Source: the human T2T-CHM13v2.0 reference genome, Homo sapiens | Direction: 5' to 3' (one strand) | NCBI RefSeq assembly: GCF_009914755.1 | Contig: NC_060927.1 | DNA: 64,000 nucleotides | Position numbers and translations under genes: made by a program | Notes under the pieces: generated by a model | The model's input: only the letters and a program-made list of their open reading frames with translations | Told to the model about the DNA's origin: nothing | Database searches by the model: none | Part shown: piece after piece, positions 871-64,000 of the stretch | How the letters are laid out: each line of letters opens with the position of its first letter | How positions within the stretch are numbered: the first letter of the stretch is position 1

Positions 871-1995
871 CATTTACTTCTTGTACACCTCTTCCCTCCT
901 CAGTCTTTTATCTAAGTTAGTAAATGACATCATCATCTACTCTATTGCTCATAGTAAAATAATTTAATAAATTATAGTGAGAATGATATGATTAGTATCA
1001 AGATAAGTAATTGAGATTAGCAGAAATAGCACCCAAGATGCCAAAATAATTAAAAGGAAATATGAATAGGTAACTCAAGAAAAGTTTTGAAGGCATTACT
1101 TAGAAGATTTTCTTTTCTTTTATTCTGCTTCTCTATATTTCAATAATGCTGGAGAAATCTTTAGCAATTCATAAGTTTTACTTGTCAACTTAAGGAAGAA
1201 GATGCCATCTAGGAATTTCATAGCTAGAGAAGTCAGTGCCTGGCTTCAAATCTTCAAAGGACAGACTGATTCTCATTAGGAGCTAATGTAGCTGGTGACT
1301 TTAAGTTGAGGCTAATGCTCATTTGTCATTCCAAAAATCCTAGGGCCCTTAAGAAGTATGCTAAATCTTTTCTGCCTGTACTCTATAAATGGAACAACAA
1401 AGCCTAGATGTAGTACATCTGTTTACAGTATGGTTTACTGAATATTTTAAGCCCACTGTTGAGACCTAGTGCTCAGAATAAAAGATTCCTTTCAAAATAT
1501 TACTGCTCATTCATTGACAGTATACCTTGTTACCCAAGAGCTCTGATGGAGATATGCAAGGATATTAATGCAGTTCTCATGCCTGCTAACACAACATCTA
1601 TTCTGTAGCCCATAGATGAGGTGTAATTTCAACTTTCAAGTCTTATTATTGAAGAAATATATTTTGTAAAGCTATAGCTGCCATAGATAGTGATTTCTTT
1701 GATGGACCTGGATGAATTAAGTTGAAAACACTCTGGAAAAATTTTGGCATTCTAGATGCCATTAAGAATATGTGTGATTCCTGGGAGGAGGTCCAAATAT
1801 CAACATTAACAGGAGTTTGGAAGAAGTTGACTTTAATCCTCATGGATGACTGAGGGGTTCCAAACTTAAATGAAGGAAGTCAGTGCAGATCTGGTGGAGA
1901 TAGCAAAAGAATTAGAATTAGAAGTGGAGCCTGAAGATGTGACTGAATTGCTGCAATTTTATGATAAAACTTTAACATATAAGAAGTTGCTTCTT

Positions 1996-3759: not shown

Positions 3760-4358
3760 TTGTATCCTCTTATGACCTCAAGGCTACAGGAGTAATCTTT
3801 GTAAAATATAAATCAAACTGTCTCATTTTGCTGCTTGAAATAGATCCCCATGGGCTGGTAGTAACATCCAGACTTTTTATCATAACTTTCAAGGTTCTAA
3901 GCCTTCCTTTCCCAGCCTGCCTTTCAAAGTCATCTGATGCCATCTTGCCTCCAGCATTACACTCCAGCAAACTGGCCTGCTTTCCCTTCCTTAGGGAGGC
4001 AGGCTCCACCCACCTCACTCCCTCCCTCCCCTCCTCCCCACCTCTGCTGCCTCAGGGCCTTTGCATTTGATCTTCTTTCTTCCTGTTGTGCTACTCCTCT
4101 GCCCTTACCTGACAGTCTGCTCTGGAGTTTGCCCTCTCCCAGTTATCCTCTGTTATATCACCTTGTTTGTCTTTTTTCATGGCATTTAGCAGGATCTAAT
4201 ATTATTTTAATTTGTATATTTTCTTGCTCATGATTAGTTTCTCCTACCAAAACCTATTTTATGAAACCTTTGTCTTGTTCTATACTATAGCCCCAGTGCC
4301 TAGGTCAGAGCCTAATGCAGAGTCAACATTTAATATATATTCAATGAATGAATGAACA
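3760..4358 (+). mobile_element. L2 LINE 3' fragment
   Basis: cagggcctttgca and ccccagtgcctag motifs; terminal (TGAA)n. Confidence 0.75.
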
Positions 4359-5452
4359 AATGTCAATAAGTTTACTTTGGTGCCTGGAACTAATGTTAAG
4401 TTTTAAGAAAATGAAGAAAGTCCTGAAGACAGCGGCCTCTATGGCCAGTAAGTAGAGTCTAAAATGAGAAGCAAAAAACAATTTAGGATTATATCTGTTA
4501 GACATAGCAAAGCCAAAAAAAGTATCAATACTAGGATTTGAAAGAACAAATTGAAAGAACGGCTAAATTGAATAACAACATTTTTCACTTCCCCTAAGTT
4601 CAGGAAAAGAGATTTTCAAAAGCAACATGAGGAATTTAAGCTGAATAATAGGGGAAAAATAAAGATTGCAATCTGAGTAATATTTCTCCAGGTGGTTTGA
4701 TATAGTAAGTAGGGTTAAAATAAAAGATCTGCCTTCAAATCTCAGCTAATGTGCCCATTTTCTACATCTAATTTCCATGAACTATTGAGTTACGTCTACT
4801 TGAACCTCTTGGCACTGGGCAATTTCTTGTGTAATTAAGCTGTGCTATATCCATGAGATTCGACTTCATGATTCCTTCCTTAGATAAAAACAAGCCTGAC
4901 TAGATCTTTCGAATGAAGTTTTTGATTTGCAAACATCTCTTGATGCCTATGTGACTATATTACGATTTAATTCAATTCAAGAATGTACTGAAAAGGGAGC
5001 TATTCCAAGAAGAGACTTATTTTAAATTTAGTCCCCATTTCAGTCTGAAATAAAATTGGGCTGCTTAGAAGCAATTTTCTTGAAAATGATTTATTGAATA
5101 TTAATAATTTTTTAAATCATATCTGACAGCCCAGATACTTAATTCTTCAAAAGTAGCCTGTGTGTAGGTGTGCATCTGCTAGCCGAGTCCTGCATAATAA
5201 CAGAACATAATTAATTCTTCACTTTTCTGAGATAATTGTTCTTAGAAAATTGCATACTAAAGGACTCACATGTCATTTTACCATGTCAGCTTTCCTTGTT
5301 ATCTCAGGCCCAACAAGTGTTTTGTCAGTTGTGTACTTTAAAATACTCTCCCTCAGGAAGCAAAAACACTTCCATGAAATATCTTGCAGTGAACTGTTTT
5401 ACACTTTTATGCTGCTTAAGAAAATGTTAGATAGGAAAAGCTCATTAAATAA

Positions 5453-6680: not shown

Positions 6681-7599
6681 AAGAGAGATCACCCTGTAGT
6701 AGCATGGTGGTTTCCATGGAATCCCTGAGGGCTGAAGAGTTGAGATAAGAGACAAGAACGAGAAAGAGGGTGGGTAGGCAGAGGTAGCTGCTGGACACAT
6801 AAAGCAAAGATAGAAATTGTATGAATTGTGGGTCTCCTTTGTGCTGTGGCATTATAGTTTGTCTCCATGCAATCATATCTCAGCAACATTTTCACAGAAA
6901 CCCAATCCCTTATAAAAAATATATTAAAATAAAAACATATTAAATAGGGAGCACATAAAAAGCTTTAAAATATGCTGCAGTGGCTCATGCTTCATCTTTT
7001 CTGGGTTCTCTCCTGTGTGGCCTCTTGTTAGTCAAAGAGCACGACATATACCCTGCAAAGAGATCAACCACATTTTTAGTGGCATCTGGATATTTCAACT
7101 TACGTTTGCAAGTTGAACAGTAAGCAGTTAGATTTTTAAGTTTGTTTATGGGGAAGGGGAGTTTAGTTGGGCTGGGAAAGGGAGAGAAAGAAAAGGCCAC
7201 CTGCCATACCATGAACAAGACAAAAAAGTTTTTCTTTCTTTTCTTCCTTGGTTGCTTCCATCCTGAAGAGAACAGCAGATGTTCAGCCTTAAATAAAGTG
7301 TTAAATTTGCATATGCACACACATACCCACAAACAGGCATGGCTCCATTTACATGTATTCCTTGAGAATGAAAAACAACCTACTGCTATATCCACCAGGA
7401 ATCCGCATACCTGCTCTACGGTTACTTGGCAGGAAGAGGGGGATGTGGAGCAAGGGTCGTCCATTCCATGCTACATTCTGGATAGTTGTTTAGGCCTATG
7501 AAGTGCAGTGTTTGCCCTCTGTAGAGTTCTTCTGCAGGCTGGGTTAACAAAGCCACACACTCACGACAAAGGCTCCATGAAAAGAGGATGATGTACATA

Positions 7600-53980: not shown

Positions 53981-54151
<171 letters not shown>

Positions 54152-61465: not shown

Positions 61466-63704
61466 TCTATACAACCAGTATTCTGAGAGCAGACAAACTT
61501 TCATTTGATGTTTACTGATAGCAGTAAAGATCCCTTAGCCAGACAGCAATTTGAATACTAATCAAACTTTGTCACAGAAACCAGGAAAACAGATGACAAA
61601 AGCAGTCAAAGGGTTGATAAATAATAGATTACCATGGTACAGCTGAAGTAATGTCCAAAGGCCTGAGCTTGCAGAAACTCAACGAAGCTATTGAATCACT
61701 TTCAAGACTATAATTGGTCATTTTGTATTGGTAATGCTAGACTTGTAATTCTTCCCTAATTATAATTTAAGAGACGTCGGCTGCACCTGCAAAAGTAAAA
61801 CCCTGGTTAGTAGTCCTGTGTGACCTAGAACAAGCCATTTTACCTTCCAACATTCTAGTCTCTCCAGCTGTAGACAAAGATTTACAACTTTTATTAGTAA
61901 TGGGATTGAGGTCCTCATATGGATGAAATGTATGCAAGTGCTGAGTATGATTATTATTTTAGCTGACAGATAAAAAGACTATCACTTGTTCTGAATGCTT
62001 TGTAAAGCAAAAGACACAAGAATGAAATTATGCCAATCGTCTTTTTTGTTTTGCCTGCTTATGGAGTTTGTTTGAACATGTCTGAATCTTATGATAAATA
62101 TGCAACATAACAAAGGATTAAATGAAAAACCATTTAATTTACCGAATCATAGCTTGTAAAAATGTATATGTATTAGTAGTGGGGCAGGGGAGGATTGGTA
62201 TAATTAGTACCCCTTAGGAAAATTGTGTCTAGCAGGAAAATGTGTACATGTTTGGCAAAAATTGAGTGACAGGTCAAGAACTCTTCAAGCTAAGAAGATT
62301 ATGTCAACAGATGCATTCCCCATCTGCTCACTGAATGCACAAAAATGGAAACCACATTTTTTCTCTGCCTATCAACGGAAGTTCCAGTTATACTCAAAGC
62401 ACAAGAATTTTACACCAATCATGCCAATAGCCAAGATGGAGAAATATAAAACGTATGTAAAATGAAGTAAAGCTATTTTATATGATACTATATGTCATTT
62501 TATGTGAAATGAAAGGTATTGTCAAAGATAATTTTTCTCTGGTCTGCATTAGAAACTCATACTTCTGTTCCCAAAAGGCACAATCTAACCACACACCAGA
62601 ACAGTAAATCTGTGTTTACACCAAAAAACACACAATCTAACTGTGGACACTGACAACGCATGGTGTTATTGGAATAATAGGTCACCAGTATCGCAGATAG
62701 ATTATTTAAGCCATTTAGTAACACAATGTTTTGAAAGCTCCCATTTTGAAGTGCTGGGGACTTCCATGAGACGTGGATATTATATGAAACATTCTTACCT
62801 GCTAGAGATATACTGACACTTCTTTATCTTTCAGTGATATTTAGGGGCAATTGATGAAAGTGAGTTACTTAAGTTCAATTGAAAATAACAAAAAGTCATA
62901 AGAAATTCACCATGCAATTCACTATTCATTGAATGAATCAACAAAGATTTGTAGAGTTCTATTATGTGGCAGGATTTTTACAGGAGCTTGACTACTGTAA
63001 AGAGCAATAAATACATGTAGTAGCTGCCCTACCTGCCCCCCAGCTCCACATTGGTCCTTATTCAATTCTGATCAAAACCAGGCTGCACATCCCTACATTT
63101 TGGCTCACACATCCTTTATAGAGAATTTTTAATCCATCTGAATGCAGCTGCTCAAACTTTGGACTTGAAATACAGGACCTTAATCTACATTTTCCAATGG
63201 CATCAATTATTGCTGTTTCTACTTGCTACTGCGAAGATCCAGGCAAAGCAATACTAAAAATTCGAGACTTTTTCTTCTGATATTAGTTAAGTAAAATTGT
63301 TACTGGGAATGGCTTATCTCTCCATGCTAAGGCAGAAGAATAGTTATAGAGATAACGGTAGTTTCTATTTTCTTTAAGCTAAATACTTTCTGGATTAGGA
63401 TTCCCTGCCTTGCAGAAGTTCTCTACCAAGCTTAGTGCCTGTGTCACAAATCCACTATCAAATTGAGCCACCTGGAATTCTGACAAGATACCAGTTACAT
63501 GGGGACTAAAGTTTTATATCTGTTATATTATTTAATCCTCACAACAAGGCCCTTATGGAAATATGACACAGAGGAGGGTGAGAAGTAGCATTACACCAAT
63601 AAAGCTGATTAAACATGAGAGGAGTAAACCAGATACTCCGGAAATGTAGGGCAACAATAACTATTTCTAAACCAACAGAAGTTCTGAGGAAACCTGGATA
63701 CAGC

Positions 63705-63994
63705 AGAAATAGAAAAGCTGTGGTAGTCAGTGATTCCCTTCTTAGGGGTATGGAAGGATCAGTGTGTGGATTATCATGGCCAGTTGGCAAGTCAGTTGTC
63801 ACATAGGTTTTTATTCATGACAGGGGATGTTGTTTAACAAGAGCAAATGCGTTGCCTGCAAAACATCTAATGATTTGTGTGGTTAATGCATGATGCTGGG
63901 AGAATAGACAAGGGAAGAATCTTTAGGTGCTTCAAAGTTTTTGGATACAAAACTGTACCACTTGGAAGCACAGATGGTGTTTTCATCACTTCTT
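63705..63994 (+). mobile_element. CR1/L3-clade LINE ORF1 fossil (SGNH esterase domain), frameshifted; may extend beyond the window
   Basis: Colinear peptide blocks RKAVVVSDSLLRGMEGSVC, WQVSCHIG..IHD, LMICV..HDA and LEAQMVFSSLL resemble recalled CR1 ORF1 blocks RRVVVVGDSLLRGTE..IC, REVCCLPGA.I.D, LLIHVGTND and GAQVVFSSIL. Confidence 0.75.
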
Positions 63995-64000
63995 TTTTTT

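What the first reader, a model, noticed from the sequence alone, without database searches (positions are those of the whole stretch)
63660..64000. Readable CR1/L3 ORF1 esterase fossil in a primate intron
Seen: with about four frameshifts the + strand gives RNRKAVVVSDSLLRGMEGSVC (63705-), MASWQVSCHIG, IHD, HLMICVV, MHDAGRIDKGRIFRCFKVFGYK and LYHLEAQMVFSSLL (-63994). Established: CR1-clade ORF1p contains an SGNH/GDSL esterase with blocks VVVGDSLLRG, VCCLPGA, HVGTND and AQVVFSSIL in this order. Mammalian CR1/L3 relics are very old and mostly 3' ORF2 fragments. Inference: a rare near-full-length insertion whose ORF1 is still recognisable, possibly unannotated and possibly constrained as non-coding DNA. 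The frameshifts argue against protein function.
Basis: partly seen in the sequence, partly recalled or inferred. Interest (0 to 1): 0.7.

Follow-up and report, generated by a model that had tools for sequence, protein, structure and literature searches.

The report
Decayed CR1 LINE ORF1 esterase fragment
An intron of the human KCNH8 gene holds a 500-base, broken piece of an ancient jumping gene's esterase; at least 26 other places in the genome hold similar pieces, so it is an ordinary and likely inert fossil.

Summary
DNA profiles of other human copies, built without this locus, match it (E 4e-32; upstream half alone E 1e-6). A protein profile of such copies hits one PDB chain only: the ORF1 esterase of zebrafish LINE ZfL2-1 (4C1B, E 3e-5). 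So it is an esterase-type ORF1 of a CR1-group LINE, most likely CR1/L3.

The inferences mostly fail. Not rare: capped searches found 26 other human loci, and 16 of 25 scored match more bases. Not near-full-length: it ends before the catalytic D-x-x-H block, and no ORF2 trace was found in 18 kb downstream. Not coding: four shifts and three consecutive stops. Three orthologue-like proteins from unnamed sources (56-73% identical) show an old shared insertion; without species names they cannot show constraint. RepeatMasker/Dfam status and conservation scores could not be checked. Verdict: real, ordinary repeat fossil.

The parts
63618..64000 (+). Whole relic as far as the window goes: 3' part of a CR1-group LINE ORF1 (linker plus most of the esterase domain). 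It continues beyond the window to window-equivalent 64121, where a purine-rich low-complexity tract (about 64122-64190) follows and family similarity stops.
   Evidence: Profiles of other human copies without this locus: 63618-63954 E 9.7e-7 and 63728-64121 E 3.9e-32; leave-one-out 63636-64117 E 1.5e-38. The 5' end is approximate. Tract; also present in orthologue-like P0001, which aligns to 64180.
63705..63773 (+). SGNH block I region; Asp-Ser at 63732-63737, the Ser being the inferred equivalent of ZfL2-1 S143
   Evidence: Translation; aligns to blocks of paralogues from 63732; residue roles from PMC3905857 passages, mapping inferred from motif position
63776..63811 (+). Block II region; Gly at 63806 is the inferred equivalent of G165
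   Evidence: Frame change at about 63775 recovered by frameshift-aware profile alignment
63813..63939 (+). Degraded block III region across a frame change near 63885; the His and Asn positions appear replaced (Cys at 63876, His at 63889)
   Evidence: inferred by comparison with copy L049, which reads HVGMNDA, and with 4C1B HVGTND. Not recovered by the protein profile alignment.
63941..64000 (+). Start of the C-terminal half of the esterase, the best-preserved part; it runs on outside the window to 64121, with three stops in a row at 64064-64072, and ends before the catalytic D-x-x-H block
   Evidence: profile A2 to 4C1B residues 99-155, E 0.0093

Best explanation
This is a broken 500-base fragment of the esterase-type ORF1 of an ancient CR1-group LINE, likely CR1/L3, one of at least 27 such fragments in the human genome, and it is likely inert. 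Shown: homology to a dispersed human repeat whose protein profile matches the ZfL2-1 ORF1 esterase; four frame changes, three consecutive stops, no catalytic D-x-x-H block, no detectable ORF2 downstream. Inferred: a long copy was reverse-transcribed into what is now KCNH8 intron 15, in sense orientation, in an early mammalian ancestor; the ORF2 part was later deleted or decayed beyond detection; the rest has drifted since. In the living element ORF1p would have been a coiled-coil plus SGNH esterase that binds membranes (PMC3905857); this copy cannot make that enzyme.
For: Profile A4 (12 other human loci, this one excluded) has 4C1B as its only PDB hit, E 3.1e-5, residues 14-167 of 171; A2 (20 rows, this locus included) E 0.0093. 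Independent DNA profiles hit the locus. 26 of 26 aligned copies pass leave-one-out at E<1e-3, 0 of 26 reversed controls, and 1 of 12 further candidates matches. Copies are about 57-73% identical pairwise over the core. 9 of 9 chosen copies and 4 of 16 others share a further segment behind ORF1, as expected of a longer element. Vertebrate CR1s carry or descend from esterase ORF1, whereas the L2 subclade holding mammalian sequences lacks ORF1 (PMC13343379 passages). The human genome has 60,731 annotated CR1 fragments (PMC3428314 Table 1).
Against: No intact amniote CR1 ORF1 protein could be retrieved (searches gave none; nothing usable), so the CR1-versus-L2 call rests on papers and on recalled motifs; the structural hit is itself an L2-type element. 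No RT was found behind any of 10 paralogues scanned (crude motif scan). The putative ORF2 start of other copies did not hit an endonuclease in Pfam or PDB. Inertness is not shown: there is about one exapted conserved element per three annotated CR1 fragments (19,644 for 60,731).
Confidence: 0.85

Rival explanations
1. Same origin, but this copy was co-opted as a constrained non-coding element (enhancer or splicing element) of KCNH8, which would explain why it is still readable.
For: Orthologue-like proteins of 73%, 56% and 62% identity (64/88, 73/130, 33/53), about 86, 77 and 80% DNA identity if neutral. CR1 fragments are often exapted. Block I is well kept.
Against: It scores mid-field among copies: 11 of 25 have higher best-hit bits and 16 of 25 more matched bases; agreement with the family majority is 0.57 in a range of 0.54-0.66 (includes unaligned flanks). 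RefSeq lists no functional element (hub annotation). The identities fit neutral placental distances if the sources are non-rodent mammals or distant primates (recalled rates).
Confidence: 0.2
2. The copies come from a non-autonomous, ORF1-carrying CR1 derivative (like HAL1 for L1) rather than from full-length elements.
For: Similarity among copies ends about 600 bases after the anchor; no collinear match further on among 11 loci of 10 kb other than Alu/L1-like repeats and only isolated pairs barely above control; no RT motif above reversed controls in a consistent place in 10 loci.
Against: Copies were selected on ORF1; pairwise detection is near its limit at this divergence; ends are ragged, with no shared 3' tail; several copies seem to continue into the ORF2 endonuclease start (by eye).
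Confidence: 0.08
3. Processed pseudogene of a cellular SGNH/GDSL hydrolase gene.
For: The SGNH fold is shared with host enzymes such as PAF-AH.
Against: The family profile hits no other PDB chain at E<=10; eight own-genome protein searches returned only dispersed short matches, none resembling an intact parent gene (candidates capped).
Confidence: 0.02
4. Chance motif matches in random intron sequence.
For: Single pieces miss Pfam and PDB; blocks I-III are weak alone.
Against: E 3.9e-32 with an independent profile; no reversed-sequence hits.
Confidence: 0.01

Closest known systems
ZfL2-1 ORF1p esterase (zebrafish LINE, CR1 clade; PDB 4C1B; PMC3905857)
   Same: Only PDB hit of the family profile, over 154 of 171 residues; same block order.
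   Different: 4C1B is an active enzyme of an L2-type element; this copy is frameshifted, has stops and lacks the D-x-x-H block.
Mammalian CR1 relics: L3, CR1L, CR1_Mam, CR1_HS, X_LINE families (Repbase list, PMC5753468)
   Same: Old dispersed CR1-group fragments in the human genome, many copies, heavily diverged.
   Different: Most CR1 insertions are 5'-truncated (PMC4316615); this piece comes from the 5' part. Subfamily not assigned: no consensus library here. From recall only, the RepeatMasker L3 model is about 4.1 kb and would cover this part.
Type IVB ORF1 of vertebrate CR1 subgroup 7 (PMC4120745)
   Same: Esterase domain of about 174 aa in ORF1.
   Different: The upstream zinc finger/leucine zipper was not detected here; family similarity fades about 330-400 bases upstream of the anchor.
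HAL1 (ORF1-only non-autonomous L1 derivative; PMC5753468)
   Same: Model for the rival reading of ORF1-bearing copies without RT.
   Different: HAL1 is L1-derived; no shared 3' tail was found for these CR1 copies.

Membership tests
Esterase-type (SGNH) LINE ORF1 | Sequence homology to a LINE ORF1 esterase across the domain | tested here: met
   Family profile to 4C1B E 3.1e-5; locus to family E 3.9e-32. The link is two-step; single pieces of the locus do not hit directly.
Esterase-type (SGNH) LINE ORF1 | Blocks I, II, III, V in order with catalytic S, G, N, D/H | tested here: inconclusive
   Order I-II-III kept; Ser and Gly present, Asn apparently replaced, block V missing at this locus (mapping inferred). 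Other copies keep block III (L049) or a DG-x-H block (L027, L059).
Active SGNH esterase gene | Open reading frame with complete triad | tested here: not met
   6, 13 and 12 stops in the three + frames over 63600-64150, longest open stretch 65 codons.
CR1 LINE (L3 group) | Dispersed multi-copy repeat | tested here: met
   26 other loci on many contigs.
CR1 LINE (L3 group) | ORF2 with APE endonuclease and RT downstream of ORF1 | tested here: inconclusive
   Not detected at this locus. 13 other copies share a downstream segment that looks like an endonuclease start by recalled motifs but missed Pfam and PDB.
CR1 LINE (L3 group) | RT phylogeny placing it in canonical CR1 rather than L2 | not testable with these tools
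   No RT recovered; no intact CR1 reference retrieved.
CR1 LINE (L3 group) | 3' UTR hairpin and octamer repeat | not tested
   No 3' part of the element was located, so none was examined.
CR1 LINE (L3 group) | Match to a Dfam/Repbase CR1 subfamily model | not testable with these tools
Conserved non-exonic element exapted from a repeat | Substitution rate below neutral across mammals | tested here: inconclusive
   Three orthologue-like proteins of unknown species.

The most novel reading that the evidence does not exclude
The human genome holds a family of ORF1-esterase-bearing CR1 relics that lack the RT half because they derive from an undescribed non-autonomous, HAL1-like CR1 derivative of early mammals, poorly covered by repeat libraries; the KCNH8 copy is one member.
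Probability: 0.08. Interest if true: 0.45.

Novelty: new member of a known kind. Interest (0 to 1): 0.15.

Why it matters
Little for this locus. It shows that the extinct mammalian CR1 carried an esterase-type ORF1 whose traces are still readable in dozens of human loci, in line with what is described for other vertebrate CR1s. The set of copies could serve to place mammalian CR1 ORF1 among amniote lineages and to check how well repeat libraries cover the 5' part. It would matter more if this copy proved to be a KCNH8 regulatory element or if the copies formed an ORF1-only family.

Tried and rejected
Pfam on single-frame pieces of the locus (0 of 5), on six frames of 10 kb around it (0 of 6; long stop-rich frames make this insensitive), on P0001-P0004 (1 sub-threshold hit), on 20 members of A2 (no SGNH family), on P0008-P0011 (0 of 4): no support, uninformative. 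PDB with single sequences and with the five-row block II-III alignment A3: only chance hits or none. Protein database searches for an intact CR1 ORF1: empty; two searches gave only orthologue-like readings of the human relics. Atlas: nothing usable. Viral contigs: none. Alignments A5 and A6 were poor (fragments collapsed or misaligned) and were not used as profiles. A4 contains one row (L062) that later failed the DNA profile; it was kept and dropped. L024 was mis-oriented in my scripts, so its minus-strand hit is a normal match. 11 of 12 weak candidates were not family members. Weak hits at window 1330-1410 (minus strand, E 0.5-0.7) show no motif and were dropped. No structure prediction: frameshifted relics would not give a meaningful model. 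Kapitonov and Jurka 2003 was not available.

Full report
Observation. I fetched the genome beyond the window (L002; L046). The last frame continues through FFNSWDSGRDREILDVNNWLCRW, three stops (64064-64072) and TGLANSFKFQADGFLSMEE into a purine-rich tract. The stretch lies in KCNH8 intron 15, same strand as the gene, between the exon ending at 54124 (hub annotation) and the last exon starting near 69445.

Direct library tests failed. Five single-frame pieces hit no Pfam family and the longest hit no PDB chain. Searches for an intact relative gave none. So I built the case from the genome's own copies.

Other copies. The C-terminal piece found 2 other loci among 3 candidates; one of these found 23 matches among 36 candidates; block II-III pieces added more. 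These searches score only the best candidates, so counts are lower bounds. I chose 25 loci with visible similarity and aligned them with this one: 26 of 26 passed leave-one-out at E<1e-3, 0 of 26 reversed controls did, and 1 of 12 remaining candidates (L024) matched (the left-out row took part in the alignment, which biases scores upward). That makes 26 other loci; L025 has the same match values as L024 and was not profile-tested. Realigned without this locus, the profile hits 63728-64121 at E 3.9e-32, and an upstream profile of 13 copies hits 63618-63954 at E 9.7e-7. Weaker tests of the upstream half were negative or marginal.

Identity of the family. A protein profile of 12 other loci has one PDB hit among 177,635 sequences: 4C1B, the ORF1 esterase of zebrafish LINE ZfL2-1, E 3.1e-5, residues 14-167 of 171. 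A C-terminal profile of 20 rows gives the same top hit, E 0.0093. PMC3905857 (abstract, introduction, passages) names the catalytic residues S143, G165, N195, D279, H282. By motif position (inferred) this copy keeps the Ser (63735) and Gly (63806), has lost the block III His and Asn, and ends before D-x-x-H. Other copies keep those blocks (L049 HVGMND, L027 KDGIH, L059 RDGVH). CR1 rather than L2 is an inference: PMC13343379 (passages) states that vertebrate canonical CR1s carry an esterase ORF1 or cluster with relatives that do, and that the L2 clade holding mammalian sequences lacks ORF1.

Not rare, not the best copy. 16 of 25 other copies match more bases than its 482, and 11 of 25 score higher; 8 of 25 reach upstream to the block I position. 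L050 (C2:162.74 Mb), L015 (C6:126.48 Mb) and L059 (C3:127.08 Mb) are clearly better kept.

Not near-full-length. Nine copies share a further segment about 270-580 bases behind the anchor (leave-one-out E 0.008 or better, 9 of 9) and 4 of 16 others have it too; this locus does not, anywhere in 60000-82000 (best E 6.7). By recalled motifs that segment is the ORF2 endonuclease start, but it missed Pfam and PDB. A crude scan for three recalled RT motifs found nothing convincing against reversed controls in 18 kb downstream or in 10 paralogous 10-kb loci. Collinear similarity between copies fades beyond about +600. This leaves open, at low odds, an ORF1-only derivative.

Age and constraint. The representative library gave three proteins that read as this very locus in other species: P0002's best genome match is here (E 1e-15), it follows the human off-frame text between blocks, and P0001 extends into the purine-rich tract. 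Identities are 64/88, 73/130 and 33/53; a neutral simulation equates these to about 86, 77 and 80% DNA identity. The sources are unnamed; that they are other mammals is my inference. They indicate an old, shared, already broken insertion, and cannot separate drift from constraint.

What is known. CR1 relics are numerous in mammals and CR1 insertions are mostly 5'-truncated (PMC4316615 passages). PMC3428314 Table 1 counts 60,731 human CR1 fragments and 19,644 exapted elements. Repbase lists L3, CR1L, CR1_Mam and X_LINE families (PMC5753468 passages). PMC9004415 (passages) already ran a genome-wide fossil search with RepeatMasker's TE proteins and found only 0.3% new in human; its one held supplement names neither KCNH8 nor CR1, and its fossil tables are external and unseen, so they may list this locus. 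PMC4120745 (passages) places esterase ORF1 in vertebrate CR1 subgroup 7 and L2 subgroup 9. Seven literature searches (listings and abstract starts only unless named above) showed no paper on this locus or on human L3 ORF1 relics as such; Kapitonov and Jurka 2003, the likeliest source, was not held.

Verdict. A real, correctly read fossil of a CR1-group ORF1 esterase; an ordinary member of a known class of ancient human repeats; likely inert, with co-option untested. Interest 0.15.

Noticed in passing
L050/L058 (G000:C2:162741574-162741996 +), L015 (C6:126484823-126485489 -), L059 (C3:127080330 onward +), L023 (C2:54920072 region -): Better-preserved copies of the same family: 840-960 bases matched, covering the esterase and the segment behind it; L015 has a 71-codon stop-free stretch over blocks II-III.
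   Followed up: partly
L036 oriented 2017-2220 (G000:C18, about 52324780-52324985 -): Behind this copy's ORF1 end lies a stretch resembling the start of a LINE APE endonuclease by recalled motifs; no library hit.
   Followed up: partly
L024 (C2:87614968-87615111 -) and L025 (C2:111773505-111773648 +): Two matches with identical scores and a 131-codon open frame, probably one relic within a segmental duplication.
   Followed up: no
P0008-P0011: Protein predictions in the public database that are close readings of three human relic loci (two of them of the L015 locus), i.e. probably spurious ORFs called on host DNA; the same holds for P0001-P0003.
   Followed up: partly
L005/L028 about 1750-2400 (C6:14.434 Mb): An L1 3' end is inserted directly at the end of this copy's ORF1, showing later insertions cutting such relics (L1 identity recalled from its protein text).
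   Followed up: no
window 1330-1410, minus strand: Recurring weak hit to the family profile (E 0.5-0.7) with no recognisable motif; probably chance.
   Followed up: yes
L002 3400-3480 (window-equivalent 65400-65480), 4100-4500 and 6980-7290: Short L1-like pieces and an Alu between the relic and the last KCNH8 exon (family names recalled).
   Followed up: no
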